64,000 nucleotides of DNA from Bacteroidota bacterium (GTDB lineage: Bacteria; Bacteroidota; Bacteroidia; CAILMK01; JACPUW01). Positions 16,301 to 45,200 of the stretch are shown here, piece by piece. Each line of letters starts with the position of its first letter. Positions within the stretch are counted from its first letter, which is position 1. The DNA is taken from positions 18,740 to 82,739 of the forward strand of contig JACPUW010000037.1 in NCBI GenBank assembly GCA_016192035.1, written 5' to 3'. The notes beneath the pieces are model-generated. The model saw only the letters and a list, made by a program, of their open reading frames with translations. It was not told where the DNA came from and made no database searches. A program made the translations under genes and the position numbers.

Positions 16301-19300
16301 AACGGAAGTACTGCGTGGTCAAGGTGGTATGGTTCAGGGAACAACTATGCCCATGTAACCAGCCGTAACGGCGGTAAAGCTTTTGAAATGTCAAATGGCG
16401 ATGCCAAGTGGTATTCCGAGTCCATAGACATTTCCTCTTACAACACGGTGGATGTATCCGTTGAGTTGGGCTCTGTACAGGGCAACCAATTGGAAGCAAG
16501 TGGCCCATACATTGACTGGGTAAAAGTGTACTACAAGCTTGACAACGGCAACTGGACGTACTTCCAAACCAATTACTACACTGCCGGTCAGCTGAGCAGC
16601 TCCAACATACACGCTACACTGAGCGGTATAAGCGGCAGCACCCTCGAAGTGAAAGTTTGGGCTCACAGCACCAGCAGCAATGAATACTACTTTGTGGACA
16701 ATGTAACGGTAACCGGTTATTCTTCAGCCAGTACCTATACCTATCAATGGAGCAATGCCGCTACTGGCCAAGATATTGACCAACTTGTGGCTGGAACATA
16801 CGTAGTTACCGTTACCAATGACCACGGATGCGTGGTTACCGATTCGTTTGAAGTAGGGCAGCCTACCGAACTGGTGATGGTAGCCGACGTGGTGGATGTG
16901 TCTTGTGGTTCAAATGCATCATGTGACGAGGGAATAGCCACACTCAAGATCAAGTTTACGGGCGACGATGGTGCTACTGTGGTAATCAAAGATGAAAATG
17001 GCAATCCCATAGACACTTTTACGAATCTCTCGGCCAATGACATACTCTCGGTAAGCGCATCAGGCATGACCAATGGCATTTTTGGTAACGCTATTCAATT
17101 ATGCCAAACCGAATGTGTGGGCATGGCATATGGAAACAATACCGCTAGCGGCTGCCGACCTGCAGTAAGCGCGTTGTTTAGCTGCGATAACCAGTCAGTG
17201 ACCACTTATTCAACCAAAGACCTATCAAATGTGGTATTGAAATTTGCCGATGGCACCGAATATAAGTTTGACAACCTAAACTGTGGTAAGTCAAAGAATT
17301 TTAGCGGTATTGGCACCAATGACGGAAAGGAAATCGTGGGTGTGTGGATCAAGTCGGGCTGCAATAGCAGCGGGGCAGGTCCAGGTTACGGTGAGTGGGT
17401 AGCCAATCCAAATGGCGTAAACTGTGTGTCCTTAAACACTCTTTGTACTGAAAATCTCATTGGCTCTGCCAGTGGCGATTTTGAGATTGTAGGCTATATT
17501 GATACCTATGGCCGAGAGGCAGACGGCAATGGCCCAACGGTGTACTGTGACGGCGCCATTGACCTGACCATTTCGGGCGGAACCGCTCCTTACGTGGTAA
17601 ACTGGGGCGATGGAGAAACTGGCAACGTACGGGGAGACCTATGTCAAGGCGACTATCTAGTGATGGTAACGGATGCCAATGGATGTGTGAAGTCCATGAC
17701 GGTAACCGTGGGCCAAACCCAATGCTGCAATGTGACCGACGCGGGTACCATAGCGCAATCACAAAACGGATGTGGCCCATTTGACCCGGCAATCCTATCG
17801 AATGCGGTAGGTGCATCAGGTGGTGACGGCACCTTAGAATACAAATGGTTGTACAGCACTTCAAGCAGCAGCTACTCGCACAATGACAGTTCTTGGATAG
17901 AATTGGTAGGTGCAACTGCCGAAAGCTATGACCCGGCTACAATAGGTCAAACTACCTATCTGGTACGTCTGGCCAAAAGGGGTAATTGTACGGCATGGTT
18001 GGCTTCTAATATTGTAGCACTCACGGTTAATCCAGTACCTAGCGTGCAGATTGTGATGGTGCAAGCTCCTACTTGTGCAGGCCAATTGGCCAGCTTGCAG
18101 GGTAGCATTAGCGGAAGCTATTCCAGCTATGAGTGGTTTTTCAACGGCCAACCATTAAACCATACCAGCTTGGATTTGGTGGGCGCACCTCAAGGCATTT
18201 ATGTGCTGGTAGCCTATGGCAACCTAGGTGGATGTACCAATGGCGACACACTGACAGTGGTTACCCCATCTGGGCCACAACTCACTGCCCAGATTACCAA
18301 TTCACAAGCCCAGGCAACATCAGCGTCCTGCGATTGCAATGGCAGGATGCGGAATTTCACCGTGATATATTCTGGTACATCAGGAGTGACCATCAAAGCA
18401 TATAATGCTAAGAAAAACACGGTAGTGGCCACGTTTACCAATGTACAGGACGGCGATACCCTTACGGTGAACGGTTTTGACAAGAGCAACAGGCTTGAGT
18501 CGAAAACCTTCCTGCGCATTGGCAGCAGCGCTACTTACACGGAGATACATACCTCATGCTCCATAGACATTCTCAACAAGACCTACGGTAGCTACTATGT
18601 AATATCCTACACCGATGGTGACGGCAACTACTGCAACGGTGGCGCAGGTTATGCTGCCTGTGATGTGAACTTTAACGGTCTGGCCCACGGTCAGCTAATC
18701 ACCAATCAGTTGGCATCAAATGGTATAAGCCTGTCGGTGAACAGTTATGGCAGCTATGTGGACAAGCTCATTGTGTTTGATACCGATGAGGACAACACTG
18801 CCGATCCTGATTTGGAAGTGAACATAGGGAATGTGTTGATTTTCCCAGAAAACACGGTTGACCAGAACAATGACGGTATATATGATAGCCCAGATGACCA
18901 ACCGGTAGGCGGCGAAATCACCATGGTGTTTGATGAGCTTAGGATCGTGAAGTCGTTCAAGTTTGTTGACAGCGAAAACAACCAGGGCCGGGCATATTGC
19001 TATGACGTGAATAACAACCTTCTTTCTACCACCACGATTGCTGCTACCGGCGATGGAACGGTGCAAACCGTGAATGTCAATACGAGTGGTGTAAAGAAGC
19101 TGAAAATCACCTTTACCACTTCAGGCGGCGTGGGCGACTTCAAGTTTGATTGCCCAAGCTCTGGCAACTGTGACGGGGAAATTGACCTTAGCATTGCCGG
19201 TGGCCAAGCGCCATACAGCGTTTCATGGTCCACCGGGGCCAGTGTTGAAGACTTGGATGGGGTATGCCCAGGCAACTACACGGTTACCGTAACCGATGCA

Positions 19301-19699
19301 AATGGCTGCACCAGCATAGAAACCTTTACCGTAGGCACCAGGACTACCTCAGCCCACAGCCAGAAAGCCGATAAGGAATACGATGTGGATGCCAGCGAAG
19401 AACAGGAATTTGGCAAGGTGGAGGGAGCAGGTATGGTTAGCTCATACGGGCTATACCCCAACCCCGCTACGCAAGTGGCCGTGGTGAGCTACGAACTCGT
19501 AAGCTCCATGGAAGTCAAGGTTTATATGACAGACCTTTCGGGTAGGTTGGTAACTACCATTTATGCCGGTGCCGTGGCAGGCGCGCAGGCCAACGCCCAC
19601 TCCATAGATCTAAGCCAAGTAATGGCTGGAACCTATCTGGTAATTATAGAAGGCACAAACGGGGACCGAAACATACAGCGCCTGGTAGTAGCCAAGTAG
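7355..19699 (+). CDS. Giant (4114 aa) cell-surface adhesin-like protein: Ig/cadherin-like, HYR-like and SprB-type repeats, T9SS type A C-terminal sorting domain
   Basis: Uninterrupted 12,345-nt ORF with an N-terminal hydrophobic signal-like segment (LAKLFLALVLVLGMG). It has Ig-like segments with DPDGDPLTY-type motifs. There are about ten ~80-aa HYR-like repeats (P[VI]AxCKNIxVxLDxxG...DGGSFDNC...LTVTDxxGN). There are more than 20 SprB-type repeats (CxGxxDGSxxxxVxGGTxPYxYxWSxG...VTVTDANGC). The C-terminal tail (YGLYPNPAT...GTYLVIIEGTNGDRNIQRLVVAK) has the T9SS type A pattern. Confidence 0.95.
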   Translation: MYPSAKPVVMYTRFTLTETSKFRPLAKLFLALVLVLGMGSFSKLEATHYRYGSMSWQPTSGNTVQMKITQGWRRSFFGNPVVGATVNTGTLYFGDGSWSAINLTVTSVNTVDDWFFGEFTVNHTYATSGNYTAYYQSCCRISTLKNNRDGNFRSETIVTVGTGNSSPVTTIAPIINLQTNLSAASFFLPANDPDGDPLTYRLATASEAAGGSFSNPSGISINASTGEVTFNTIGTTVGDLYNVALVVEDGNTKTMADFIIKIVNQSTPPYFDYSVTPASGYTYQVAPGTPVSFDVLARDNDFGSTVVLSAVGLPIGSTMNPGLPAGPSNPVSSTFSWTPSSSQLGSFVINFTAQDNNGVQTSTSISIQVSLKPVFDVPPTPAAGVHLVFAPGDMIQYTVQASDPDSLDIVTINLVEGKAMNGTHIALYSGASFSPIPTTAANPTSGVFTWQTQASDWGHRHVFFTAEDGYGDKAVHEVSMLLNTNPAFLSSPISSVNIGQTYSYLVVTSDPDTAYGDSLELFGFNLPSWLTFIDYGNGTGLLTGTPSISDVGAYNVNLEVQDIHHHSNVGGIPSQNFTITVNPCAIVLGYTVVDESCLASNGSIHVTANGVNLPAQYSWTGSNGFSASSLSISGVPQGNYQLSITDTFGCTASLTAAVGGIVDTVKPVFAVYDYVEIGLDTAVNYSFSSGELIMSSYDGCPVATTYFPSSVNCDDAGVIDTIMVVQTDVYGNSDSAFVAVKPLDITAPIVNIYHKVVVQLDDDGNAMVFPSTFDSLTWDRCTDVVFTLSQTKFDCTDLPMANVTLTVEDENGNSESDIWTRVIAGNQIYYQKTELNDYYTVTVFIDDCIPPVAICKDIEVQLDQFGKASILPDDVNDGSFDNCNLWYFTLDDSTFTCSDVGNQWVNLHAYDMTGNMACCPVQVTVRDTINPVAVCKDIIVYLDSVGSVVVKGKDLDGGTTGNCDVETFELSDTAFTCGSLGVNLVQMTAIDNNGNQSSCHANVTVLDSLKPVAICRNISVGLDSNGIAQIQAADIDGGSFDNCQIVSITIDKSSFTCGDLGNNLVRLTVTDQSGNWSACEAWVNVYDSIAPSLVCQNITAPLAANGYSTITVNDVIASYSDNCSSNYFTASISDSIFDCTSGGVYNVTVKVWDSAGNVDSCVATVTVVDKPIAECKNATIYLSESGSATLQANQVDGGSFDACGIDTMWISKSMFTCENLGTNSVMLTVCDADGNCDSCFASVTVLDTNGMGTSAQIQDVSCFGGANGSIDLSVTGGNTLGCQGFSTFTQGGWSTSCSGNNPGCYRDAHFANAFPVGLTIGCSTGFSATFTSSAAIRSFLPAGGSPSVLNANLTDPSSTSAGVLAGQLVAATLNMTFDSYDSSFASSMGLLANNTINLPSSPFHGMKVSDVIDLANQFIGGCLSGFSASDINVVLTKINENYNHGNNQHLRAPYAYSWSNGAHTEDLINVPAGSYTVTISDCGNCTYVETFVISQPSLLEVSVSGIDPTCATGTDGSASASVTGGTAPYTYLWSNLDTSASIVGLADGTFSVMVTDANGCQATGSVSIARPVCCNVTSGGSITGNQEHCGPFDPSPIASNALPSGGLGGVEYIWMQSNVNVPNTVGNPYWSPIPGSNGHTYDPGYISQTTYYIRCSRSIGCTFWAGESNVVAVIVNPIPDVAIASISDVSCVSNTCPDLAYQRYADASTGLAEFNGLYFSAEGRSGNNAMSGTFELDIHKITPYTPTVSSNFVWPNGTQVPFSIDYDPSLSGNDRFVFTLGSGASQTVLKYDPLTVFPNNVNGVYLYSRTAPNTKLMITDLSVNGNSVGQDFGYAYPTTSSFENVVFKGTEFQNAFTITGNVEFAWSGTIPQNSNMNFNFKLGNIDCTGGSTCDGAVDIDVTSGTSPFSYAWSNGQTSQDIDDLCAGDYTVVVTDAKGCVATETFTVNEPLPLTASYTVLPATCADNNDGSATIIPSGGNQPYGYAWSSGATSATADSLLPGVYSVIITDSKGCQITVNVTVGYEDTQDPIAVCKNISIYLDANGQAAIVAADVDNGSYDNCGIGNISIDKEDFTCADLGANAITLTVTDVNGNSSTCTATVTVVDDMDPVVLCKNISVLLDSNGMASITYADIDFGTTDNCSIASRVLSKYNFTCADLGQVTITYEVIDQSGNSAICQSTVTVLDYISPRLVHMPGNILVVADSSDCSPSANWTPPTGTDNCSVVVTSSHNPGDDFSLGTTTVTYTATDGSGNSTNGTFTVTVTKTPLSITTTSLNVDCYGAATGSASVLVKGGCLPYSYQWSSGSTSYTATGLTAGNHTVTVTDGSGESQTITVTITQPSQLSASVSVTNVSCGGSVVDTCVVTRYNSSSHAIWLPNLPNGVSNKFWFAGNGGSLVQYPDGTAHLSGEIYNANDANKRFAVSVWFANKRDWAQWSALGRSYKDEANVAGSNYLNWWYYEMDVNKSNTLTGLADYSGDVLYLAHMPSNYMYGFQVGTAANSKDSDYGMSGWFTYTGAWSGHGDFNFDGSCGNAAQCDGEASVTASGGTAPYTYQWSTGGISTVEGNLCAGTHSVVVTDANGCALIKDFTVTAPAELVVSVSGNDPTCATGTNGSASASVTGGTAPYSYLWSTGGTSASVSGLSDGTYSVIVTDANGCQATGSVSIARPVCCNVTSGGTISGNQENCGPFDPSPIASNALPSGGLGGVEYIWMQSHVNVPNTVGNPYWSPIPGSNGPTYDPGYITQTTYYIRCSRSVGCTFWAGESNVVALTVNPIPAASGIVVQNVSCFSGNDGSASVNVSGGTSPYAYAWSNSQTAQTISGLIAGTYNVVVTDAKGCTVSAQVQIDEPSELTASLLAVDTVCFGGSDGSIDLTIAGGTATYAINWTKNGSYYASSEDLTGLSGGTYMAAITDANGCSISLSHTIIERAAFALSATVSNAVCFGSNTGSIDLEVTGGSSSSASTDFWKETFEDNNLCATSDNGSTAWSRWYGSGNNYAHVTSRNGGKAFEMSNGDAKWYSESIDISSYNTVDVSVELGSVQGNQLEASGPYIDWVKVYYKLDNGNWTYFQTNYYTAGQLSSSNIHATLSGISGSTLEVKVWAHSTSSNEYYFVDNVTVTGYSSASTYTYQWSNAATGQDIDQLVAGTYVVTVTNDHGCVVTDSFEVGQPTELVMVADVVDVSCGSNASCDEGIATLKIKFTGDDGATVVIKDENGNPIDTFTNLSANDILSVSASGMTNGIFGNAIQLCQTECVGMAYGNNTASGCRPAVSALFSCDNQSVTTYSTKDLSNVVLKFADGTEYKFDNLNCGKSKNFSGIGTNDGKEIVGVWIKSGCNSSGAGPGYGEWVANPNGVNCVSLNTLCTENLIGSASGDFEIVGYIDTYGREADGNGPTVYCDGAIDLTISGGTAPYVVNWGDGETGNVRGDLCQGDYLVMVTDANGCVKSMTVTVGQTQCCNVTDAGTIAQSQNGCGPFDPAILSNAVGASGGDGTLEYKWLYSTSSSSYSHNDSSWIELVGATAESYDPATIGQTTYLVRLAKRGNCTAWLASNIVALTVNPVPSVQIVMVQAPTCAGQLASLQGSISGSYSSYEWFFNGQPLNHTSLDLVGAPQGIYVLVAYGNLGGCTNGDTLTVVTPSGPQLTAQITNSQAQATSASCDCNGRMRNFTVIYSGTSGVTIKAYNAKKNTVVATFTNVQDGDTLTVNGFDKSNRLESKTFLRIGSSATYTEIHTSCSIDILNKTYGSYYVISYTDGDGNYCNGGAGYAACDVNFNGLAHGQLITNQLASNGISLSVNSYGSYVDKLIVFDTDEDNTADPDLEVNIGNVLIFPENTVDQNNDGIYDSPDDQPVGGEITMVFDELRIVKSFKFVDSENNQGRAYCYDVNNNLLSTTTIAATGDGTVQTVNVNTSGVKKLKITFTTSGGVGDFKFDCPSSGNCDGEIDLSIAGGQAPYSVSWSTGASVEDLDGVCPGNYTVTVTDANGCTSIETFTVGTRTTSAHSQKADKEYDVDASEEQEFGKVEGAGMVSSYGLYPNPATQVAVVSYELVSSMEVKVYMTDLSGRLVTTIYAGAVAGAQANAHSIDLSQVMAGTYLVIIEGTNGDRNIQRLVVAK
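11849..12391 (+). repeat. Intragenic 543-nt module, copy 1 (SprB repeat plus Cys-rich CCNVT module)
   Basis: It encodes LEVSVSGIDPTCATGTDGSASASVTGGTAPYTYLWSN...CCNVTSGGSITGNQEHCGPFDPSPIASNALPSGGLGGVEYIWMQSN...YYIRCSRSIGCTFWAGESNVVAVIVNPIP. It is colinear with 15143-15685. Confidence 0.9.
15143..15685 (+). repeat. Intragenic 543-nt module, copy 2
   Basis: Same length and same frame as 11849-12391. The protein sequence is almost identical, with many synonymous nucleotide differences. A third, diverged copy of the CCNVT module lies at ~17720-18040. Confidence 0.9.
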
Positions 19700-29062: not shown

Positions 29063-29149
29063 GCTGGTTCCTTAAATTGTTGCGAATTTACCCGCCGCAT
29101 ATTGAGCATTAGCTAAATATTTGTGCTGTTGGCGCAGCTATTATCCTTT

Positions 29150-31306
29150 ATGGTACACAAGCTTTTGGACTTGGACAAATCCTTGCCTGGCATAGCTGTC
29201 TGCGTGATTTCCTTTTGGCCTATGGGTGCGGGACTATACGCCCAAACCAACGAGGGAGTGAATGAAGAACTAAGTTCTAAGCTAACAACAAATTTTTCAC
29301 CTACATACAGGCAATATCTATCCAGTGATACCACCCGCACCAATGCCGTGAATTTTGACCAGTTCACCGGCAAAAAATTGATTTTCTATGATAACTTTAT
29401 AGACAACCGCAATACCTGGCCCTACTGGTCAAGCATGGGCGACTCCATCCTGCAAGAATGTTTGGGCATAGACAACAATTTCATTTGCCGTACCCAGGGC
29501 ACCAGATTGGCCGACTCTTATACCGACATGGCCGATGGCCAAAAGGTATTGGCTTGCTACACCCCTGAAAGACTGTTTAGGTACACCAACCAGGTGAAGC
29601 TGGGTAAAAACTATGTGGTGACACTGAACCCTTTATCCATCAAACAAGTATCACAATTGCCTTCAAGCTACTATGAGGGCTACTGTGAACATACCACCAG
29701 GGTGCACCGCAGTTTCAACGGCAAGGATTTCGCCATAGAAACACAGGTAGCGCAGGCCGTGGGCAACTGGGGCATCTTGTTTGGCGACATGGATTCTGAC
29801 CGTCCGTACTACCTGTACAGGCTCAATACGGAGGGCTCGTGGGCTTTTTTTGCAGTGTATCCCAATAACAGGAACAAACCGGTGCAACTTGAAAGCGGGT
29901 CGCTGAACATTCCCTTTGCCCAGGTCCACAAAGTAGGACTGGTGTTTGTCAGCAATGGTCAGGGGGGGTTTAAGTTGGAGTTTTTTATTAACGACAAAAA
30001 GGCCGGCCAAACCAATGTTACCCGCATGCCGCTTGAGGTTATGGACATAGGATACCGACTGGACCACAATTCAATAGATGGCAACAACATACTAATAGCA
30101 CGTGACCTGGCGGTATATGAAATACCGTTGGACACCTACCTGGAAGACCATTTGAGGCTTACCGGTGGATGGAACGGGGCCGTGTTGAGAAACAACAACG
30201 AGGTGTTGTACCACGTGAAAGGCTATTTCAACGAAGACCATACCGGCAACATTACCGGGCGCTTGGTTTTTACCCATGCCAAGTTTAGCGACATAGTAGT
30301 AACAAAGAAATTGAGGGCCAAGAGGACCAAAAACATTGTCAATTTTGAGGAAACCTCCTGCACCGTCAAGGGCATTCGCAACAAGGTGATACTATTCTCG
30401 GTGCTGCAAAAGGGGCATATGGACATTCAGAATCCCGATTCCCTCATCATTTCCTCCTGCTTGGCCAGCAATCTCCACCGCTACGGTGAATTTGACAGCC
30501 GGATAGACCTGCACACCGATAAGTTGTATATGGGCCGGGCAAAAAGAACAACCAAATCGGCAAGCATAGCCAAGTATGACTCCATCAATGTTAATAAATT
30601 AATAGAAATCAAGCGACTGTATTTTATACCCAATAGCGCTGAATTGGAAATGGGCGAGGAAACCAAGATAAGCCTGGACAACCTGGCCCGCGAACTGCGA
30701 CGGTACTATGCCCGCAACAAGGAGGCGGTACTCATCATTCACGGCCATACCGACCTGGGAATTGAACAAACCTATTCATTGATCCGCGCCAAAAGCATTC
30801 AGGCCGAATTGGAATCCAGGGGCATTAGGGCCCCAATTTTCTGTATAGGTCACGGTTTTAGCCAGCGCGTTTCGGCCATACACGGCGATCCGCGAAACAG
30901 AAGGGTAGAGGTAGAACTGGTACAGGTAGATTCGGCCTGGGTAGATAATGACGCGCTATTTATGGGGCAGGGTGCCAAAAGCGAGTTAATCAAGAATTTA
31001 CCTGATGAGTATATTGTCACGGCCCAGTTTAAACTGGCACCTGGTGCCGATGTGCGCATAGTAATGGCACACAAAACGGGGGGGGCGCCCCTGGTGTGGC
31101 AAATACCCAATGTGGCCGGCGGACAGATGCAAACCTTAAAGGTGCGAAAAAGATACCGTGCCGATCACGATGCCATTATCCTTGAGTTTGTGCTTGATGA
31201 TATAAACTATCTATCGCAAACCCTAACGGGGTATGGATCATTTGGGTTTGATGTGCGAACAGGCTCAATGGAACTCAACAACCTGGTTATTTTTGGCCCG
31301 GAATGA
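29150..31306 (+). CDS. Secreted multidomain protein with OmpA-like peptidoglycan-binding domain
   Basis: Signal-like N-terminus (GIAVCVISFWPMGAGLYAQ). The OmpA_C-like domain reads LYFIPNSAELEMGEE...VLIIHGHTDLGIEQTYSLIRAKSIQAELESRGI...NRRVEVELV. N- and C-terminal flanking domains are unassigned. I chose the ATG at 29150 over the GTG at 29123. Confidence 0.75.
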   Translation: MVHKLLDLDKSLPGIAVCVISFWPMGAGLYAQTNEGVNEELSSKLTTNFSPTYRQYLSSDTTRTNAVNFDQFTGKKLIFYDNFIDNRNTWPYWSSMGDSILQECLGIDNNFICRTQGTRLADSYTDMADGQKVLACYTPERLFRYTNQVKLGKNYVVTLNPLSIKQVSQLPSSYYEGYCEHTTRVHRSFNGKDFAIETQVAQAVGNWGILFGDMDSDRPYYLYRLNTEGSWAFFAVYPNNRNKPVQLESGSLNIPFAQVHKVGLVFVSNGQGGFKLEFFINDKKAGQTNVTRMPLEVMDIGYRLDHNSIDGNNILIARDLAVYEIPLDTYLEDHLRLTGGWNGAVLRNNNEVLYHVKGYFNEDHTGNITGRLVFTHAKFSDIVVTKKLRAKRTKNIVNFEETSCTVKGIRNKVILFSVLQKGHMDIQNPDSLIISSCLASNLHRYGEFDSRIDLHTDKLYMGRAKRTTKSASIAKYDSINVNKLIEIKRLYFIPNSAELEMGEETKISLDNLARELRRYYARNKEAVLIIHGHTDLGIEQTYSLIRAKSIQAELESRGIRAPIFCIGHGFSQRVSAIHGDPRNRRVEVELVQVDSAWVDNDALFMGQGAKSELIKNLPDEYIVTAQFKLAPGADVRIVMAHKTGGAPLVWQIPNVAGGQMQTLKVRKRYRADHDAIILEFVLDDINYLSQTLTGYGSFGFDVRTGSMELNNLVIFGPE

Positions 31307-32064
31307 CAAGCGCAAGCCACCTGCCAGGGTCACAAGCCCCTGAAACCTGGCTTGTGGGCAATAGCACCCCGCTACTGATGGCTTTCTTGATAGACAAGGG
31401 GTTCATGCACCAACTTCTGCCACAGGAACACGCAGTGGAATTTTTTTCGCCATTGGGAAATAAGGTGATTAAACTCGGCCTGCCCTTGGTGTGGCCAGCC
31501 CTACAAGGGCACGAAAGCCTAGATGGGTATATGGAACATGGTGATGGGCCCCAGCCGGGCCAGCTGTCATGGGTGCTGCTGGTACGCGCAGGTGAGGCGG
31601 CACTGGGGTGGGTAATTCAGGGTAAATTGATGAAATACAAGGTGGTGAGAAAGTATATGGTGAGAAAAAAACAGGGAAAAGCCCAGGTAAGCCATCTCAA
31701 GACCAAGGGTAAATCAAGGGCGGGGTCGCGCATCAGATTGGCCCAAACGGAGGCTTTTTTTGAGGAAATCAACCACAAGCTACAGGAGTGGAAACAGCAA
31801 GAAGAGCCTCAATTGATAGTGATGGGCGTGGCACCCACCCTAAAGGCAGCCTGGGCCCAGCATCCCAGCGCCCGCGCCTTTGAGTTTGACGATCCCAGGC
31901 TGCGACGGGTCAACTGGACAGTGGGTTTGCCCCGTGAAAATGAGTTAAAGAAAGCCATTTGGCACTTGGACAAGGCGCGGCTAAGCATCTTTGACCCGCA
32001 GCTGGCCTCCCTGTTGGCCAGCATTGCCAATGCACATGGCCAGATTTACCGCCAAAACACTTAA
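31303..32064 (+). CDS. Vms1/ANKZF1-like release factor (VLRF1) domain protein, putative peptidyl-tRNA hydrolase
   Basis: 253 aa. WVLLVRAGEAALGWVIQGKLMKYKVVRKYMVRKKQGKAQVSHLKTKGKSRAGSRIRLAQTEAFFEEINHKLQEW...RVNWTVGLPRENELKKAIWHLDKARLSI is colinear, by eye and from memory, with the eukaryotic Vms1 VLRF1 core (HRY..R.KQGGSQS...KGK..SAGS.lRRYNE...). Its ATG overlaps the stop of the upstream gene (ATGA at 31303-31306). Confidence 0.65.
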   Translation: MTSASHLPGSQAPETWLVGNSTPLLMAFLIDKGFMHQLLPQEHAVEFFSPLGNKVIKLGLPLVWPALQGHESLDGYMEHGDGPQPGQLSWVLLVRAGEAALGWVIQGKLMKYKVVRKYMVRKKQGKAQVSHLKTKGKSRAGSRIRLAQTEAFFEEINHKLQEWKQQEEPQLIVMGVAPTLKAAWAQHPSARAFEFDDPRLRRVNWTVGLPRENELKKAIWHLDKARLSIFDPQLASLLASIANAHGQIYRQNT

Positions 32065-33184
32065 AGGGCTAGAGCCTATACTGGCTGCAGAGCTATTGGC
32101 GCTGGGTGCCGAACACGTGAGCCCAGGCCGCCGGGTGGTGTCGTTTGCCGGCGACAAGGAAGTGCTGTACAAAGCCAATCTATGCCTGCGCACCGCCCTA
32201 AACATACTTGTGCCCATACACACCGTGGAACTCACCCATGCGGGTGACTTGTACCCGGCCATGCGCCAGGTTAACTGGTCAGCTTACCTACGGGTGGAGC
32301 AAACCTTTGCCATAAAGGCTACCGTGTTTTCTAACCTATTTGCCCACTCCAATTTCCCCGCACTCAAACTAAAGGATGCCATAGCCGACTGGTTTAGGGA
32401 CAAATACGGGCGAAGGCCATCGGTGGATGCGGCAAGGCCCAACGTCCTTTTTGACTTGCACATTTCAGAACAAACGCTTACGGTCTCCATTGACAGTTCA
32501 GGCGATACGCTCAACAAAAGGGGGTACCGGCTCCACGGCGGCATGGCCCCACTCAATGAGGTACTGGCCGCAGGTATGCTCATCATGGCCGGTTGGCCAC
32601 ACCTGGGCCCCTTGCATGTGCCTATGTGCGGTTCGGGAACCCTGGCCATAGAGGCCGCCTGTATGAGCGCCGGCCTACCCGCCAACCGACTGCGCAAGTC
32701 GTTTGGATTTCACGAATGGCCTGACTTTGACCCCGCCCTATGGAATAGGGTGTACAGTGATTGCGCCATGCCAGTGCCTAAGGCAACGCTGCAGCCCACC
32801 ATCATGGCCAGTGACCTGGCACCCGACATGGTGAGGCTTGCCAGACAAAACGCCACCACGGCAGGCGTGGAGCATCTTATAAGCTGGGCAACAGGCGATT
32901 TTGAGAAGTGCAAACCCAATACCGACCATGGACTTGTGGTAGTGAACCCACCCTATGGCGAAAGGCTAAAGGAAGATGATTTGATGGCACTCTACAAGCG
33001 CATGGGCGATTTCTTGAAACGTTCTTTCACGGGTTTTGATGCTTGGATCCTGAGTTCCAATGCCGAGGCACTGAAGTCGGTAGGCTTGAAACCAAGTGCC
33101 AAAATAACCCTTTTTAACGGCAAGTTGGAATCCAAATATGTCAAATTTGAACTGTACAGAGGAACCAAAAAACAAAAGGAATGA
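32036..33184 (+). CDS. THUMP-domain class I SAM-dependent RNA methyltransferase (RlmL/UPF0020-like)
   Basis: MARFTAKTLKGLEPILAAELLALGA is a THUMP-family start. It also has the SAM pocket PMCGSGTLAIEAA and the catalytic VVNPPYGERL (N/DPPY) motif. It overlaps the preceding ORF by 29 nt. Confidence 0.85.
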   Translation: MARFTAKTLKGLEPILAAELLALGAEHVSPGRRVVSFAGDKEVLYKANLCLRTALNILVPIHTVELTHAGDLYPAMRQVNWSAYLRVEQTFAIKATVFSNLFAHSNFPALKLKDAIADWFRDKYGRRPSVDAARPNVLFDLHISEQTLTVSIDSSGDTLNKRGYRLHGGMAPLNEVLAAGMLIMAGWPHLGPLHVPMCGSGTLAIEAACMSAGLPANRLRKSFGFHEWPDFDPALWNRVYSDCAMPVPKATLQPTIMASDLAPDMVRLARQNATTAGVEHLISWATGDFEKCKPNTDHGLVVVNPPYGERLKEDDLMALYKRMGDFLKRSFTGFDAWILSSNAEALKSVGLKPSAKITLFNGKLESKYVKFELYRGTKKQKE

Positions 33185-34626
33185 TAGATAAGGCAAAACT
33201 GGCCCTGGTACTGCTGGCCTCCTGCAGCACCATGGGTTGCATTCAGGCGTCAAAACCGGGGTTGGCCACCATAAACGGCAAATCTGATCTGAACAACCAG
33301 TGGCTCTATTTGGTAGAGCCCAATCCCTGGGCCACCGCCGTGCATATATTGGATTCCACCAAAACAGATGCCAATGGCGCGTTTGCCCTTGAGGCCAACA
33401 TACCTACCATGGGCGAATACATCATTTCGGGAAGGGGATTTTTTTTGGCTACGGTGTTTTTGGAAAACGGGTTTGAAATACAAATGAACGTAGGGGGCAC
33501 CGGCAGCAACGGGACCGCCAAAAAGGTGGATTTCTCGGGCAATGGAAGCAACCTGAGCGCTTTTTGGCAAAACATGAATAAGCGCTATTACCAAAATGGA
33601 GGCTATGGCAACCGGTACAAAAAGCGGGTAGAGGCCAATGGGCCGGCGGAATTTGCCGCACTTACTTCGGCGCTCACCACTGAGCAAATCGGTGTGATTG
33701 ACAGTTTTGTCAAAGCGGCCAGGCCCGCGCCCTTTTTTGCCAAATGGGCTACTTCCTTTGCCTATCACAGCGGGCTCAACCGGCACTTTACCTATCTATA
33801 TCACAAACCGCGCATGGAGGCCAAGCCGGGCACCAATTACCTAGTGGTTGACGACAGCTATTATGGATTTCTTGACAAGGTGGACCTAATGGAAGCACCG
33901 GAATTCACCCATAGCGCCTTCAATGAGTTTGTTTATTTCTACATATCCGACCACAGGTTGCGCCAGCAAGGCGGCATGGAAGCCTCGGTGGAATCGGTGG
34001 CTCAATGGGCAAGGGCCAATATGCACCCCATTTTGGCCGACTTGGCCATAGCCCACGTTATCAAGGATTTGATTCAAAATGCTTCGGGCAAAAGCGATTA
34101 TGACCAACTGCGGGATGCACTCGCTTCTTATGCCGAATTGGCCATGGGCCGGGCGTATTTGGAGTTCCTGCAAAAGGAATTTGCCCAGAAAGCGGTCCTG
34201 GCTCCAGGCTCTCCGGCCCCTGGTTTCACCCTTGCCGACCTGTACGGAGCAAATGTGTCGCTGGCCGATTTTAAGGGCAAGATTGTGGTGATAGATTTCT
34301 GGGGCACATGGTGTGGCCCTTGCAAACGCGAGTTGCCCTATTCCCGCGAACTGGAAACGCACTTTAAGGACAGGGATGATTTGGCATTTGTATTTGTGGC
34401 CCTAGAGCGCGGGGGGCGCGACTACTGGAAGCAATTCGTGGAATCCAACGACCTTCCAGGGGTTCAACTATATGCTACCAACGACATAAAAAGCCTGCGA
34501 CCCTATAAAATCACCTCGGTACCCCGCTATGTACTGGTTGACAAGGATGGGAACATCATTGATGCTTTTGCCTCAAGGCCCAGCCAGAATATGAAGCAGC
34601 AAATAGAAAAGGCACTGGGCTTGTGA
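33181..34626 (+). CDS. Lipoprotein with C-terminal TlpA/ResA-like thioredoxin-fold (thiol-disulfide oxidoreductase) domain
   Basis: The lipobox-like N-terminus is LVLLASCSTMGC. The C-terminus reads GKIVVIDFWGTWCGPCKRELPY (CxxC redoxin motif). Its ATG overlaps the upstream stop (ATGA at 33181-33184). Confidence 0.85.
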   Translation: MIDKAKLALVLLASCSTMGCIQASKPGLATINGKSDLNNQWLYLVEPNPWATAVHILDSTKTDANGAFALEANIPTMGEYIISGRGFFLATVFLENGFEIQMNVGGTGSNGTAKKVDFSGNGSNLSAFWQNMNKRYYQNGGYGNRYKKRVEANGPAEFAALTSALTTEQIGVIDSFVKAARPAPFFAKWATSFAYHSGLNRHFTYLYHKPRMEAKPGTNYLVVDDSYYGFLDKVDLMEAPEFTHSAFNEFVYFYISDHRLRQQGGMEASVESVAQWARANMHPILADLAIAHVIKDLIQNASGKSDYDQLRDALASYAELAMGRAYLEFLQKEFAQKAVLAPGSPAPGFTLADLYGANVSLADFKGKIVVIDFWGTWCGPCKRELPYSRELETHFKDRDDLAFVFVALERGGRDYWKQFVESNDLPGVQLYATNDIKSLRPYKITSVPRYVLVDKDGNIIDAFASRPSQNMKQQIEKALGL

Positions 34627-42212: not shown

Positions 42213-45200
42213 TTATTGTAGCAGCGTGATACTGCCTTCGGCGTGGGTAAATTTTCCGCTTTTGTCCCTAAGTACCACCCGGTACCTATATACACCTATG
42301 GCAACACGCTGGCCGTGGTAAAAACCATTCCAGCCCTGTGCTATGTCGGTTGACTCATACACCACCTCGCTCCAGCGGTTAAATATGGTCAACCTAAAGT
42401 TGTCAAATTCTGCCTCGCTGCCATTGAGCGCACCGGAGCCACTCACCATAAATACGTCGTTTACCCCGTCGCCATTGGGCGAAAAGGCATTGGGAATGAA
42501 CACTTTCATATCGGGCAGGGTACTTACCGTATTGCTCCAAGCCTGTCTTTCTCCGTGTTGGGCACGTATCCGGTAGCGCAGGTTTTCGCCGCTCTTTTGA
42601 TACACCTCTTCATCGGCAAACTGGGTAGCTGTTTGTGTGCTGTATATGGTTTCAAAATATCCGTCCTCACCCGCCCGCTCCAGGTAATACCAAGTGCCTA
42701 TGGGCCATCCTTGAGCTAGGTTCCACTCGGCAACGGTGTGTAAATCATCGCGTTGTAACGCAATAACTACGGAGCCAATAGACGCGCTGGGGTCGGTTGG
42801 GCTATTGCAGTAGTCTGACCCTGTTATTTGATAACTATAGATATCGCGATCGGGATAAACCCGTATGGTGTCGAGGTAAAAAGTGTCGTACACCAGGGCA
42901 TGGTTTGTTACTGTGCCAAAGTTTGGGTCGGTGCGCGTGACCACATAGCGGTTTACCTGTGGGTGTGGGTGCCTTTGCCAGGTGGTAAGCAGGTATTTAT
43001 TGTCAATTACGGTGGTAACCCACATTTGATTGCTTCCTACAGGGGCTTGGTAATCAGGGCTTATGGTGTCGGTGTTGCTATACGTGGTATAGTTTGGGGC
43101 AGACCGGATGGCTTGCACCGAGTAGGTGTAGCGTTGTTGGCAGACTTGTGAATCGGTAAAGGCGCGCGAACCGGGGGGGAGGCTTGCCAACAGTTCCGGT
43201 TTTTCGCCGTTGGTGCTCCTAAATACTTGGTAGGCCGATATGTTGTCCCACCCTTCGTAGGCTGTCCACTCTAGCGTAGGAAAAAAATTGGCATCTCCTG
43301 GCGTGATGGTCAGCCGCACGGGGCGGTGTGCCGTGCCCACCTCCACCGTATCGCCACAGTCATTTACCGTGCTGAGTTGATAGGCCGGTTGGCTTGACAG
43401 TGGGCGAAACAAATGGGCACCAGGGCCCAGCAAACTGTCGCGCGGCCGGCCAATGGCAAACAATGCCTGGGGGCCTTGCGGCAACAATTCATGGGCCATA
43501 AACCCATGGGTGCCTTCTAGGTTGTCATTTTCTATATGCAAGCGTATCACCTTGTTATCATCATAACTGGCCAGGCCTATGCCCCCATGGAGTATGGGCC
43601 TTGGAGTGGTGATCAAAAGGGTATCTGACCAGGTTTTTTCTGCCTGGCAGCCAAACGCATCGCGCACCGTGAGCCTGATGGCCTTGAAACCTGCTTCCTT
43701 AAAAAGACGGACAACCCGTGCCCCGCTTGAGGTATCCGTGAGGGGACTAATTGGATTAAAATCCCACACATGTTTGGTAATGGGATTGTCGGCCAATGAC
43801 AGATCGGTGAACGTAAGGGTGTGGTCGGTGCACTGCCGCAGTTTGTCCAGGCCAATGGCTACCATGGGGTTTCTAAACACCTGGATATAGGCAGGTTTCT
43901 TTTCGGTGCTGGCTATGCCTGCCACGTTATATGCCTTGAGTGTAATGGAGTGGAGACCAGGGCCTAAGATTAATTGAGGATTGCGCTCGTGGCTAAATGC
44001 GCTGTCGTCCTTGTTGAGGTACCAAGCAAAACTGTCGGTAAATGTGCTAAAGTTTTTAAGCTGAACGCTTAAGTGGCCGCAGCCTACCAGTGTGTCGGCC
44101 AAAAAACGGGCCTGCGCTGCGCTGTACACCCGTATGGGCAGTCCATCAAAGGAGCGGGAACATCCCCTGTCGTCAAAAGCCACCATGCGCGGGCGATACT
44201 CGGTGTACAACATGGAAGTGTCGCCGGCCAGGTAGAGGTGCGGACGGATCGTGTTGCTGTCCACGCTGCTCTGGTCGCCGTAGTCAAACAGGTAGTAGCT
44301 CACCCCTTCGTTAAAGGAGAAAAACTCCACGCTGAGCCGCTCGCTGCCCAGGGTGGTGTCGGCCACAAACCGGGGCCTGGGCCCGGCCATTTTTATAAAT
44401 GAATCCTTTGATAGGGTATCGGCACAGCCGTGCTTGGATAGTGCCACCAGTTTCACATCAAAGTAGTATTCGTATTCATTGTCAAGGTTTAGTATGTCAT
44501 AGAAATGTCCGGTTTGTTGCATGGAGGTGCCCAGGCTGCTCCCATCGCCAAAAAGCCAAACAAAGGAATCGACATTGGTATGGACTATGTCAAACTTGAC
44601 CAAGGCCGGGGCGCATAACAAGCTCTTGGATTCATCTGAGGCAAATCCAAAATCAAAGTCAATCACGTGGATGTCGCGGTAGGTGGTATCGGCGCATCCC
44701 AGGTCGTTGGTGGCCACCAGGCCTACCTTGTGTTGGCCGGTGGAGCTAAATACCAGCTTGGGCGACGGGGCCCTAGGTTTGGGTTTGACCATACTGGAGG
44801 TATCAAATACCAACCACTGAAACTTATTGGCCCCCAGCTTTGATGTGTTGCTGGTGGCCAATGGGATATCTATACAGGCGGTGCTGTTGGATGCAAATGA
44901 AGCGATTACCCCCGCTTCATAAGCCCTGGTGTGGGTAAACTGGGTAACACAGCCTTCGCCGTTGGTGAGCTTGATGGTAAGGCCGTAGTAATCACTCTTG
45001 TCAATATAGATTTCCGTGGTGTCGTTATAGGGTTGGGTTATGCTGATGCCCGATGAATTGGTACTGCCCCAGGAATACCGTACTGAGGGATTTGGCTGTG
45101 TATGCTGCACGTTGTACAGGAGTAATACATGTGCCTGGTCGGTAAACGGCACGCACGAAGCCCTTGTGGAGGTGCGTATTTCCGCTTTGGCGCCGCTCAC

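What the first reader, a model, noticed from the sequence alone, without database searches (positions are those of the whole stretch)
31303..32064. Bacterial Vms1/ANKZF1-like release-factor (VLRF1) protein overlapping a 23S-rRNA-type methyltransferase gene
In eukaryotes the VLRF1 domain of Vms1/ANKZF1 releases nascent chains from tRNA on stalled 60S subunits, using a Gln in a GxQ loop related to the eRF1 GGQ. The product here shows, in the same order, a strand motif WVLLVRAGEAALGWV, the basic loop RKYMVRKKQGKAQV (nt 31663-31689, candidate catalytic Gln at 31684-31686), then KGKSRAGSRIRLAQTEAFFEEI, and a C-terminal ...LPRENELKKAIWHL.... From memory this parallels yeast Vms1 (...HRYTTRRKQGGSQS...KGKANSAGSALRRYNE...). 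Bacterial VLRF1-type clades have been noted in comparative genomics. To my knowledge they have no experimentally defined role. The 29-nt overlap with a THUMP/RlmL-like methyltransferase gives a concrete ribosome-linked hypothesis: a rescue or quality-control factor acting on the large subunit.
Basis: partly seen in the sequence, partly recalled or inferred. Interest (0 to 1): 0.7.

Follow-up and report, generated by a model that had tools for sequence, protein, structure and literature searches.

The report
Bacterial Vms1-like ribosome rescue gene
This gene encodes a small bacterial relative of Vms1/ANKZF1, the eukaryotic protein that cuts stuck nascent chains off stalled large ribosomal subunits; the family is already catalogued (Pfam bVLRF1) but I found no experiment on a bacterial member, and its overlap with an rRNA methyltransferase gene is confined to one lineage.

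Summary
ORF 31303-32064 (+, 253 aa) carries every quoted motif, and CAG at 31684-31686 encodes Gln128.

- Sequence: Pfam PF18826 bVLRF1, E=2.3e-25. A profile of 61 homologues hits yeast Vms1 at E=1.4e-9.
- Fold: a confident AlphaFold model (pLDDT 88.7) has four Vms1 structures as its best PDB matches.
- Loop: the G-x-small-Q loop is present in all 205 homologues examined.

The family was named in 2019, so this is a new member of a known kind.

The overlap with the RlmL-type methyltransferase is real and is kept in all 11 loci of the window's own Bacteroidia clade. It is absent from 78 of 78 other bVLRF1 loci. bVLRF1 is also absent from 80 of 80 loci holding other orthologues of the methyltransferase. 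The overlap is therefore weak evidence of function.

Elsewhere in the family, bVLRF1 is fused to or adjacent to parts of the CCA-adding/repair enzyme: its HD domain in six clusters, its nucleotidyltransferase head in one protein, and a divergent gene pair in Oligoflexus. This favours Vms1-like cleavage of the tRNA CCA end followed by tRNA repair. Nothing has been tested experimentally.

The parts
31303..32064 (+). bVLRF1 gene (253 aa), a bacterial Vms1-like member of the aeRF1 superfamily
   Evidence: ORF. Pfam PF18826, E=2.3e-25, residues 91-226. Profile vs PDB Vms1, E=1.4e-9. AlphaFold2 pLDDT 88.7 and pTM 0.84. Foldseek top four hits are Vms1. The start at 31303 overlaps the upstream stop codon (ATGA). 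It is favoured over Met26, the start used by the database gene call P0001 (228 aa), because strand 14-18 is modelled with high confidence and homologues have the equivalent N-terminus.
31342..31542 (+). N-terminal alpha/beta extension (residues 14-80)
   Evidence: The model shows strands 14-18, 35-39, 44-48 and 54-59 and helices 22-31 and 73-79, with block pLDDT of 88-97. This corresponds to the 'distinctive N-terminal extension' shared by bVLRF-1 and eukaryotic VLRF-1 in PMC6514570. It lies outside the Pfam model match.
31564..31992 (+). RNase H-like core of the release-factor domain (residues 88-230)
   Evidence: Order of elements in the model: three strands (88-95, 98-105, 108-116), the loop, a long helix 139-166, strand 171-176, helix 178-185, strand 200-202, helix 212-222, strand 225-229. 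It matches the Vms1, eRF1/aRF1, Balon and Pelota central domains.
31654..31686 (+). Basic catalytic loop Y118-M-V-R121-K-K-Q-G125-K-A-Q128 (GxuQ motif; candidate catalytic Gln at 31684-31686)
   Evidence: Y118, R121, G125 and Q128 are invariant in 61 aligned homologues. G-x-small-Q is present in 120 of 120 database homologues and 85 of 85 proteins read from loci. The loop aligns to Vms1 R-Y-T-T-R-R-K-Q-G-G-S-Q, which includes the Gln mutated in PDB 6R84, 'Vms1 (Q295L)'. pLDDT of about 60 here fits a flexible loop.
31708..31740 (+). Invariant G136-K-S-R-A-G-S-R-I-R-L146 block at the start of the long helix (predicted RNA contact)
   Evidence: G136, K137, S138, G141, S142, R143, R145 and L146 are invariant. 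[quoted passage not shown] Residues 109-150 hold 14 K+R and 1 D+E; the whole protein has pI 9.8.
32036..33184 (+). RlmL-type THUMP RNA methyltransferase gene (382 aa from ATG 32036), overlapping the 3' end of bVLRF1
   Evidence: Pfam RlmL_1st, THUMP and UPF0020. NCBIfam RlmK/RlmL N-terminal half, 330.6 bits. PDB E. coli RlmL 3V97 at E=1.9e-58, against Trm14 at 1e-7.
32036..32064 (+). 29-nt overlap of the two genes (the methyltransferase is in the +1 frame relative to bVLRF1)
   Evidence: Sequence. An overlap of 11-50 nt is called in every relative of the clade that was examined with gene calls.
29123..31306 (+). Upstream gene of the same tightly packed cluster: 727-aa protein with a weak OmpA-like C-terminus
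   Evidence: Its stop codon overlaps the bVLRF1 start by 4 nt. No Pfam hit; NCBIfam OmpA-like at E=5e-5. Syntenic in 9 of the 10 related loci.
33181..34626 (+). Downstream gene of the cluster: 481-aa thioredoxin/redoxin-like protein
   Evidence: Its start overlaps the methyltransferase stop by 4 nt. Pfam Redoxin, AhpC-TSA and Thioredoxin_8. Syntenic in the clade.

Best explanation
The gene encodes a standalone bVLRF1 protein, the bacterial sister family of eukaryotic Vms1/ANKZF1. I propose that it needs no stop codon and binds large ribosomal subunits that still carry a peptidyl-tRNA after a stalled ribosome has been split. Its basic surface (R121, the GKSRAGSRIRL helix) would hold rRNA and tRNA, and the flexible loop would place the invariant Gln128 (G-K-A-Q) at the peptidyl-transferase centre. 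There it would sever the nascent chain from the body of the tRNA. The most likely chemistry is that of ANKZF1: cutting off the 3'-CCA and leaving a 2',3'-cyclic phosphate. The cell's CCA-adding/repair enzyme would then heal the tRNA, with its HD domain removing the phosphate and its nucleotidyltransferase rebuilding CCA.

Shown here: family membership, fold, invariance of the loop, and the association of the family with Cca domains. Inferred: ribosome binding, the substrate and the chemistry.

In this Bacteroidia lineage the gene lies in a tightly packed four-gene cluster (OmpA-like, bVLRF1, RlmL-type methyltransferase, thioredoxin-like). It is probably co-transcribed and translationally coupled with the methyltransferase gene, but that arrangement looks like a local gene order rather than a functional partnership.
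For: Membership:
- Pfam PF18826 scores 89.7 bits against a cut-off of 27.
- 586 homologues were found; all 120 listed are annotated PF18826.
- The family profile hits yeast Vms1 at E=1.4e-9 across the loop and core.

Fold:
- The model has pLDDT 88.7.
- The top four Foldseek hits are Vms1 (6R84, 6R87, 6R86, 5WHG; E from 5e-7 to 1e-5), followed by eRF1/aRF1, Balon and Pelota.

Catalytic loop:
- Y118, R121, G125 and Q128 are invariant.
- The motif is present in 205 of 205 homologues.
- It matches the GxuQ motif that defines bVLRF-1 and eVLRF-1.

Architecture:
- There is no codon-recognition or C-terminal eRF1 domain, which fits action without mRNA decoding.

Chemistry:
- Vms1/ANKZF1 cleaves off CCA and leaves a 2',3'-cyclic phosphate. 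ELAC1 and TRNT1 then repair the tRNA.
- Within the bVLRF1 family, six sequence clusters at 51-63% identity (P0222, P0238-P0242) are fusions of bVLRF1 with an HD domain.
- That HD domain's best NCBIfam match is positions 178-350 of 'multifunctional CCA addition/repair protein' (E=2.4e-18). Its nearest unfused relatives are CCA-adding enzymes.
- In these fusions the GKSQ loop is invariant, and the HD signatures are conserved in the members that cover them.
- One Oligoflexia protein (P0135) fuses bVLRF1 to positions 1-125 of the same Cca model (E=1.3e-47).
- In an Oligoflexus genome a standalone HD protein of this type lies head-to-head with an intact standalone bVLRF1, 74 bp away, in two independent assemblies.
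- The E. coli Cca HD domain removes 2',3'-cyclic phosphates from tRNA ends.

Open niche:
Against: - No experiment on any bacterial VLRF1 was found, so ribosome binding, substrate and chemistry are all inferred from eukaryotic relatives.
- The authors who defined the family argued for peptidyl hydrolase activity.
- The Cca/HD associations are rare: seven fusion clusters and one gene pair, against 1393 family representatives. Where taxonomy is known they come from one group (Oligoflexia). None of the other 87 loci, nor the window, has a Cca-like gene within reach.
- No RQC partner lies nearby. PMC6514570 states that prokaryotic VLRF-1 proteins occur independently of other RQC components.
- In B. 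subtilis the general peptidyl-tRNA hydrolase Pth suffices for release.
- Global superposition on Vms1 is only moderate (TM 0.41-0.48, large rmsd).
- The family is sparse: 395 loci matched in a scan of one genome for each of 185,579 species. It cannot be a general solution.
Confidence: 0.55

Rival explanations
1. The setting is the same (stalled large subunit carrying a peptidyl-tRNA), but the protein is a true peptidyl-tRNA ester hydrolase like eRF1. Gln128 would position water, and an intact deacylated tRNA would be released.
For: The authors who defined the family hold this view. They compare GxuQ with GGQ and argue that the small residues give the loop flexibility. The protein belongs to the aeRF1 superfamily, whose founding members are hydrolases. 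Most bVLRF1 genes have no tRNA-repair gene nearby.
Against: Later papers describe the closest characterised relatives, Vms1 and ANKZF1, as CCA endonucleases. A hydrolase leaves nothing to repair, so it gives no reason for repeated fusion or adjacency with the cyclic-phosphodiesterase and nucleotidyltransferase parts of Cca.
Confidence: 0.2
2. The protein works together with the overlapping RlmL-type methyltransferase. It could act as a checkpoint or release factor tied to large-subunit assembly or modification near the peptidyl-transferase centre. Alternatively, the NPPY-type methyltransferase could methylate Gln128, as PrmC methylates the GGQ glutamine.
For: The two genes overlap by 11-50 nt in all 11 loci of the clade. 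In L084 the pair persists although the upstream genes differ. Nine of the linked proteins form a clade with 97 of 100 bootstrap support. The methyltransferase is RlmL-type and shows weak similarity to PrmC/HemK (E=6e-6).
Against: No such methyltransferase lies within 6 kb in 78 of 78 other bVLRF1 loci, which span Cytophagales, Calditrichota, Myxococcota and Spirochaetia. bVLRF1 is absent from 80 of 80 loci that hold orthologues of the methyltransferase at 43-48% identity, so each gene normally exists without the other. The cluster also holds an OmpA-like gene and a thioredoxin-like gene, so tight packing here does not imply a shared function. The L084 methyltransferase ORF is disrupted or chimeric after residue 264. 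THUMP is an RNA-binding domain, which argues against a protein substrate (the domain's role is from general knowledge).
Confidence: 0.07
3. The protein is an off-ribosome tRNA 3'-end nuclease that trims CCA from free or charged tRNAs, for example as a stress or conflict response, with HD/Cca reversing the damage.
For: The associations with HD and the Cca head show a link to tRNA 3' ends but not to ribosomes. Gene neighbourhoods differ even among Pontibacter species.
Against: The fold and the conserved arginine helix belong to ribosome-bound A-site factors. Vms1 was solved bound to the 60S subunit. Fusing a damaging nuclease to its own repair enzyme makes more sense if cleavage is an unavoidable by-product of release. 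There is no match to any PADLOC defence model.
Confidence: 0.08
4. The protein is a non-catalytic occupant of the ribosomal A site, such as a hibernation or inhibitory factor like Balon.
For: Balon is a bacterial aeRF1 homologue and appears among the structural matches (8RD8, 8V9J). There is a faint NCBIfam hit to the Balon family model (E=0.017). Many bacterial aeRF1-like families are thought to be inactive.
Against: Those inactive families have lost the glutamine, whereas here it is invariant in 205 of 205 proteins. The Balon model scores 14.6 bits against a cut-off of 330. The protein lacks the flanking domains of Balon and eRF1.
Confidence: 0.05

Closest known systems
Pfam PF18826 bVLRF1 / 'bVLRF-1 family' of Burroughs and Aravind 2019 (PMC6514570)
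   Same: The protein is a full member. It scores above the Pfam cut-off and has the GxuQ loop, the conserved arginine helix and the N-terminal extension. It has the typical standalone size of about 210-255 aa and comes from a Bacteroidota host.
   Different: Nothing essential differs. This subclade has its own C-terminal tail, whose coding sequence overlaps an RlmL-type gene. The 2019 paper calls prokaryotic VLRF-1 proteins standalone and never mentions an HD domain or CCA.
Yeast Vms1 / human ANKZF1 (eukaryotic VLRF-1; PDB 5WHG, 6R84, 6R86, 6R87)
   Same: These are the best sequence and structure matches among solved structures. The catalytic loop aligns residue for residue, including the Gln mutated in 6R84, and the downstream KGK..AGS block and the core also align. 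A shared mechanism is presumed.
   Different: The Rei1-type zinc finger, ankyrin repeats, VTC domain and VIM/Cdc48-binding motif listed for the eukaryotic proteins are not detected here. Sequence identity is only 14-16% in the structural alignments, and TM-scores are 0.41-0.48. The substrate would be bacterial 50S, not 60S.
Classical eRF1/aRF1 and Pelota/Dom34
   Same: The RNase H-like central domain is shared, with a glutamine-bearing loop after the third strand.
   Different: The motif is G-K-A-Q rather than GGQ. There is no stop-codon-recognition N domain and no C domain, so the protein cannot read codons or act as a full tRNA mimic.
Balon (AOC03_06830 family ribosome hibernation factor)
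   Same: It is another bacterial offshoot of the aeRF1 superfamily that binds the A site, and it is a structural match.
   Different: The family model scores 14.6 bits against a cut-off of 330. Balon does not depend on a catalytic Gln, whereas bVLRF1 keeps its Gln invariant.
Bacterial nascent-chain release on 50S by Pth, and the codon-independent release factor ArfB
   Same: The proposed job is the same: freeing a nascent chain from a peptidyl-tRNA that the normal termination route cannot reach.
   Different: The folds are unrelated. Pth and ArfB hydrolyse the ester bond. Pth is essential and near-universal, whereas bVLRF1 is rare.
E. coli-type multifunctional CCA addition/repair protein (Cca: nucleotidyltransferase head + HD domain)
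   Same: It is the partner found fused or adjacent to bVLRF1 in some lineages. It supplies the two activities that ELAC1 and TRNT1 supply after ANKZF1 cleavage.
   Different: It is not encoded next to the window's gene or anywhere in the 64-kb window.

Membership tests
bVLRF1 (Pfam PF18826; bVLRF-1 of PMC6514570) | Score above the curated gathering threshold of the family model | tested here: met
   89.7 bits against a cut-off of 27, E=2.3e-25, covering model positions 3-141 of 145.
bVLRF1 (Pfam PF18826; bVLRF-1 of PMC6514570) | GxuQ loop: invariant Gly, a small residue before the Gln, invariant Gln | tested here: met
   G125-K-A-Q128. G and Q are invariant in 61 sequences, and the motif is present in 205 of 205 homologues.
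bVLRF1 (Pfam PF18826; bVLRF-1 of PMC6514570) | Conserved arginines at the start of the helix that follows the three core strands | tested here: met
   R143 and R145 are invariant and R139 is at least 90% conserved. The helix spans 139-166 in the model.
bVLRF1 (Pfam PF18826; bVLRF-1 of PMC6514570) | Distinctive N-terminal extension in place of a stop-codon-binding domain; standalone protein | tested here: met
   A confidently modelled alpha/beta extension covers residues 14-80 and no other Pfam domain is found. Nearly all family representatives are 210-255 aa.
aeRF1 superfamily (RNase H-like release-factor fold) | The fold of the central domain matches solved members | tested here: met
   Foldseek finds Vms1 at E=5e-7 and eRF1, aRF1, Balon and Pelota at E from 1e-4 to 1e-2, with probabilities of 0.9-1.0.
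Eukaryotic Vms1/ANKZF1 (eVLRF-1) | Accessory domains: Rei1-type zinc finger, ankyrin repeats, VTC, VIM (Cdc48 binding) | tested here: not met
   No such Pfam domains were found. The protein is 253 aa and consists of the extension plus the core only.
Eukaryotic Vms1/ANKZF1 (eVLRF-1) | Cleavage of peptidyl-tRNA on the large subunit, dependent on the loop Gln | not testable with these tools
   This needs biochemistry. Only indirect support is available, from fusion or adjacency with Cca domains in the family.
Classical eRF1/aRF1 | GGQ motif plus N (codon recognition) and C domains | tested here: not met
   The loop is G-K-A-Q. No eRF1 domain families were hit and the length is 253 aa.
Balon (NCBIfam NF052287) | Score above the equivalog cut-off | tested here: not met
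   14.6 bits against a cut-off of 330.
RlmL (23S rRNA m2G2445 methyltransferase), for the overlapping neighbour gene | RlmL_1st + THUMP + UPF0020 architecture and closest similarity to RlmL | tested here: met
   All three Pfam domains are present. E. coli RlmL 3V97 scores E=1.9e-58 over residues 5-374, against 1e-7 for Trm14.
RlmL (23S rRNA m2G2445 methyltransferase), for the overlapping neighbour gene | NCBIfam equivalog cut-off (the model is the fused RlmK/RlmL protein) | tested here: not met
   330.6 bits against a cut-off of 466. The match covers only model positions 2-388 of 704, because the RlmK half is absent. The substrate was not tested.
Anti-phage defence systems (PADLOC) | Match to any defence-system protein model | tested here: not met
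   There are no hits for bVLRF1. The methyltransferase has only a generic methylase hit (mad2, E=2.5e-9).

The most novel reading that the evidence does not exclude
bVLRF1 is the dedicated nascent-chain release factor of bacterial ribosome-associated quality control that is reported as still missing, at least in the lineages that carry it. [quoted passage not shown] The fusion proteins would then be single-chain 'cut and heal' enzymes. The eukaryotic ANKZF1, ELAC1, TRNT1 sequence of steps would have been inherited from bacteria together with the VLRF1 domain.
Probability: 0.35. Interest if true: 0.75.

Novelty: new member of a known kind. Interest (0 to 1): 0.42.

Why it matters
For this window the result is mostly housekeeping. 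The gene is correctly identified and belongs to a family described in 2019 that has its own Pfam model. The eye-catching overlap with an rRNA methyltransferase gene is a local gene order.

The family itself remains an open problem. It is the closest bacterial relative, and the proposed ancestor, of the eukaryotic RQC release factor. I found no experiment on it. Reviews of bacterial RQC still list the release step as lacking a dedicated factor.

The fusions and the gene pair with Cca domains found here turn the long-running question of hydrolase versus CCA nuclease into a simple prediction for the bacterial proteins. They also identify compact proteins (P0238-type fusions of about 350 aa) and cultured hosts (Pontibacter, Rufibacter, Echinicola) in which it can be tested.

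Tried and rejected
1. Methyltransferase linkage as a family-wide association: rejected. It is found in 0 of 78 other bVLRF1 loci, and bVLRF1 is near 0 of 80 other orthologues of the methyltransferase.

2. Any other conserved neighbour: rejected.
- All-against-all clustering of 846 ORFs from 81 loci gave no cluster shared across phyla next to bVLRF1.
- Recurrent clusters are an aminotransferase, an L,D-transpeptidase, an SDR, a GSDH, LiaF-like, DUF2911, UvrA-like, a PAS kinase and a Zn-ADH.
- Tightly coupled singleton neighbours are heterogeneous. They include TruA in some Pontibacter, RelA_SpoT-TPR in one Calditrichales genome, a 5_nucleotid_C protein, DUF188, FTHFS, HAD, an amidohydrolase and MatE.
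- By my rough estimate, about three RNA-related neighbours among about 30 is what chance would give.

3. L084 as clean proof that the pair survives rearrangement: downgraded. Its methyltransferase ORF diverges after residue 264 into unrelated sequence, so the contig may be chimeric.

4. The neighbour as a tRNA m2G6 (Trm14/TrmN) enzyme, which would have tied it to tRNA acceptor ends: rejected in favour of RlmL.

5. Defence-system role: no PADLOC hit.

6. Promoter and terminator scans around the cluster: at shuffle level and uninformative.

7. tRNA and Rfam scans of the window: nothing found.

8. Cca or HD genes near bVLRF1 in the window or in the 88 bVLRF1-bearing loci held at the time: only L024 itself. 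The standalone HD protein P0244 has no bVLRF1 on its 9-kb contig.

9. Monophyly of all ten linked proteins: seen in the point-estimate tree but with only 25 of 100 bootstraps. Nine of them have 97 of 100; L087 floats. The first tree script timed out.

Full report
**Observation**

The window has an ORF at 31303-32064 on the + strand (ATG start, 253 aa). Gln128 is CAG at 31684-31686.

The only slip concerns the coordinates of the basic loop. The range 31663-31689 covers RKKQGKAQV, whereas the 14-residue string starts at 31648.

The ATG overlaps the stop codon of the upstream gene (ATGA). A database gene call for the same protein starts at Met26 instead (P0001, 228 aa). I favour the longer form for two reasons. 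The structure model places a confident strand at residues 14-18, and homologues have the equivalent N-terminal segment.

The downstream ORF is an RlmL_1st + THUMP + UPF0020 methyltransferase. The overlap is 29 nt if it starts at ATG 32036, which gives an N-terminus MARFTAKTLKGLE. It is 35 nt from ATG 32030 and 74 nt for the longest mechanical ORF.

**What it is**

- Pfam assigns residues 91-226 to PF18826 'Bacteroidetes VLRF1 release factor', at E=2.3e-25 and 89.7 bits against a cut-off of 27. The sister family acVLRF1 is a weak second.
- A single-sequence search of PDB sequences finds only yeast Vms1 (E about 0.02). It aligns RKYMVRKKQGKAQ with HRYTTRRKQGGSQ.
- A profile of 61 homologues raises that match to E=1.4e-9.
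- An AlphaFold2 model built on the same alignment is confident (pLDDT 88.7, pTM 0.84). It shows an N-terminal alpha/beta extension (residues 14-80) and an RNase H-like core. The core has three strands, then a low-confidence loop at 117-138, then a long helix.
- The four best Foldseek matches in the PDB are Vms1 structures (E from 5e-7 to 1e-5). eRF1, aRF1, Balon and Pelota follow. Global TM-scores are moderate (0.41-0.48).

**Conservation**

In 61 aligned homologues (29-52% identical to the window protein), 15 columns are invariant: G97, Y118, R121, G125, Q128, G136, K137, S138, G141, S142, R143, R145, L146, F152 and P210.

A motif count over all sequences held gave G-x-small-Q in 120 of 120 database proteins and in 85 of 85 proteins read from genomic loci. 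That figure comes after inspecting the eight that a too-strict pattern had missed. The third position is mostly A or S.

The loop-to-helix segment (residues 109-150) has 14 K+R against 1 D+E, and the whole protein has pI 9.8.

**What is already known**

Burroughs and Aravind (2019, PMC6514570) named the VLRF-1 clade and its bVLRF-1 family. They described the GxuQ motif and the shared N-terminal extension. They proposed that eukaryotic Vms1 derives from the bacteroidete family. They also stated that prokaryotic members are standalone and occur independently of other RQC components.

My full-text searches found no experimental study of a bacterial member.

The family is small:
- An exhaustive profile search of 1.84 billion representative proteins gives 1393 hits at E<=1e-3 and 258 at E<=1e-30.
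- A pattern-seeded scan of one genome for each of 185,579 species finds 395 loci.
- By record title, the best 80 loci are 60 Bacteroidota (26 of them Pontibacter), 11 Calditrichota, 5 Deltaproteobacteria/Myxococcota/Oligoflexia, 2 Spirochaetia and 2 unclassified. That is somewhat wider than 'predominantly Bacteroidetes'.

**The methyltransferase link**

I tested the link in both directions.

*From bVLRF1.* Only 2 of the 80 genome loci (L001, L002) have a relative of the methyltransferase within 6 kb. They are the closest relatives and share the whole order OmpA-like / bVLRF1 / methyltransferase / thioredoxin-like.

Seven metagenomic relatives at 39-47% identity were then looked up. All have the overlapping pair, with overlaps of 11-50 nt, and six also keep the flanking genes. 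The exception is L084, which has different upstream genes. Its methyltransferase ORF, however, departs into unrelated sequence after residue 264, so that contig may be chimeric.

Nine of the ten linked proteins in the tree form a clade with 97 of 100 bootstrap support. The tenth, L087, floats.

*From the methyltransferase.* 356 metagenome loci encode orthologues. The best 80 are 43-48% identical, and none has bVLRF1 within 4 kb.

The methyltransferase is clearly RlmL-type: E. coli RlmL at E=1.9e-58, against Trm14 at 1e-7.

*Conclusion.* The pair is a stable, probably co-translated arrangement inside one uncultured Bacteroidia lineage, within a four-gene cluster that also holds two envelope-type genes. 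It is not a property of the family, so it says little about function.

**Other neighbours**

Clustering 846 ORFs from 81 loci found nothing conserved next to bVLRF1 across lineages. Even Pontibacter species differ.

Recurrent clusters and tightly coupled singleton neighbours are mostly metabolic or envelope genes. The few that are RNA-related are TruA in some Pontibacter and a RelA_SpoT-TPR protein in one Calditrichales genome. There is no defence-system match.

**A lead on mechanism from elsewhere in the family**

Among the 150 best representatives, two are longer than the rest.

*P0222 (375 aa)* is bVLRF1 plus an HD domain.
- A homology search with it found five more clusters with the same two domains, at 51-63% identity. 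One of them is seen on 7 contigs in several samples. This is a maintained fusion, not an assembly error.
- In these proteins the GKSQ loop is invariant. The HD signatures (WHPEGDVW.HT, LCHDLGKP, EAD.SGRPP) are conserved in the members that cover them.
- The HD part best matches positions 178-350 of NCBIfam NF008137 'multifunctional CCA addition/repair protein' (E=2.4e-18).
- Its nearest unfused relatives are annotated CCA-adding enzymes and standalone HD proteins of about 275 aa.

*P0135* comes from an Oligoflexia MAG. It is bVLRF1 running in one ORF into positions 1-125 of the same Cca model (E=1.3e-47), where the contig ends. It is a singleton.

*A gene pair in Oligoflexus.* The closest standalone HD protein with a named source (P0247, Oligoflexus sp.) lies head-to-head, 74 bp away, with an intact standalone bVLRF1. 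This is seen in two independent assemblies. A second standalone HD protein, P0244, has no bVLRF1 on its short contig.

The 2019 paper does not mention an HD domain or CCA.

**Why that matters**

Reviews and recent papers describe Vms1/ANKZF1 as an endonuclease that removes the 3'-CCA of the peptidyl-tRNA and leaves a 2',3'-cyclic phosphate at N73. ELAC1 removes the phosphate and TRNT1 rebuilds CCA.

In E. coli, the HD domain of Cca removes such cyclic phosphates.

A hydrolase that releases intact tRNA would have no need of these partners. A CCA-cutting enzyme would. I therefore favour the nuclease chemistry for bVLRF1.

The caveats are that these associations are rare, that they come from one group where taxonomy is known, and that they are not present at the window's locus.

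**Mechanism proposed for the window's protein**

*Shown:* membership, fold, the invariant loop and the basic surface.

*Inferred:*
- The protein binds 50S subunits that carry a peptidyl-tRNA. It needs no codon, since it has no decoding domain.
- It inserts the Gln128 loop at the peptidyl-transferase centre and severs the chain from the tRNA, probably by cutting off CCA.
- The cellular Cca repairs the tRNA.

A 2024 paper states that no dedicated RQC termination factor is known in bacteria and that Pth performs the step in B. subtilis. bVLRF1 would therefore be a lineage-restricted alternative. I put 0.55 on this explanation as a whole.

**Rivals**

| Rival | Confidence |
|---|---|
| True ester hydrolase in the same setting | 0.2 |
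| Off-ribosome tRNA-end nuclease | 0.08 |
| Role tied to RlmL | 0.07 |
| Non-catalytic A-site factor like Balon | 0.05 |

**Verdict**

The finding is real and correctly interpreted, but it is a new member of a known, already named family. Its most distinctive local feature, the gene overlap, is lineage-specific.

The interest is moderate. It rests on the family being uncharacterised in bacteria and on the Cca-domain associations, which make its chemistry directly testable.

Noticed in passing
P0222, P0238-P0242 (loci L170-L173); P0135 (L024 = L169, 2360-3544); L174 4279-5624 and L175 2461-3806: bVLRF1 occurs fused to a Cca-type HD domain (six clusters) and once fused to the nucleotidyltransferase head of Cca. 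In Oligoflexus it also forms a divergent gene pair with a standalone Cca-type HD gene. The 2019 family description does not mention any of this.
   Followed up: yes
L174 5601-6422 (-) and L175 3783-4604 (-): A 273-aa GIY-YIG nuclease-domain protein overlaps the 3' end of the HD gene that pairs with bVLRF1 in Oligoflexus. Whether it belongs with the pair is unknown.
   Followed up: no
L084 5064-6566: The methyltransferase ORF next to bVLRF1 matches RlmL-type proteins only up to residue 264. It then continues into unrelated sequence with an ACR_tran hit. This is either a chimeric contig or a real disruption.
   Followed up: partly
L019-L080 (26 Pontibacter loci): The genes flanking bVLRF1 differ widely even within the genus Pontibacter. 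A TruA-type tRNA pseudouridine synthase is immediately upstream in two loci and within 6 kb in six. A UvrA-like ABC ATPase and a PAS histidine kinase also recur.
   Followed up: partly
L003 3288-5312 (+); L027 6676-7959 (+); L060 5361-5834 (+): Single cases of tightly coupled neighbours that could relate to RNA ends or ribosomes. A 674-aa 5_nucleotid_C protein overlaps the bVLRF1 start by 4 nt. A RelA_SpoT + TPR protein lies 12 nt downstream. A DUF188 (YaiI) gene overlaps by 26 nt.
   Followed up: partly
window 29123-31306 (+): The 727-aa protein upstream of bVLRF1 has no Pfam match and only a weak OmpA-like C-terminus. It is nevertheless conserved at 45-58% identity and syntenic in 9 of the 10 related loci. 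Its N-terminal part of about 500 residues is uncharacterised.
   Followed up: partly
window 31303 vs 31378: The database gene call for this protein (P0001, 228 aa) starts at Met26. The 253-aa form starting at the ATGA overlap fits the structure model and the homologues better.
   Followed up: yes
window 7355-19699 (+) and 42213-47147 (-): Two very large type IX secretion cargo proteins are present. One has 4114 aa with SprB repeats, HYR and a Por_Secre_tail. The other has 1644 aa with PKD domains and a CHU_C signal. Both are typical of gliding Bacteroidota.
   Followed up: partly
window 2321-5173 (-): A 950-aa UvrA-like ABC ATPase lies 26 kb from bVLRF1. A UvrA-like protein is also a recurrent neighbour of bVLRF1 in 11 loci from Pontibacter. 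This is probably coincidence.
   Followed up: no
window 1-64000: No tRNA or tmRNA gene and no Rfam family at gathering threshold was found in the whole 64 kb. The G+C content is 49.5%.
   Followed up: yes
window 32036-33184 (+): The RlmL-type methyltransferase gives a PADLOC 'mad2' hit (E=2.5e-9) over its methylase core. I read this as generic methyltransferase similarity, not as a defence system.
   Followed up: partly
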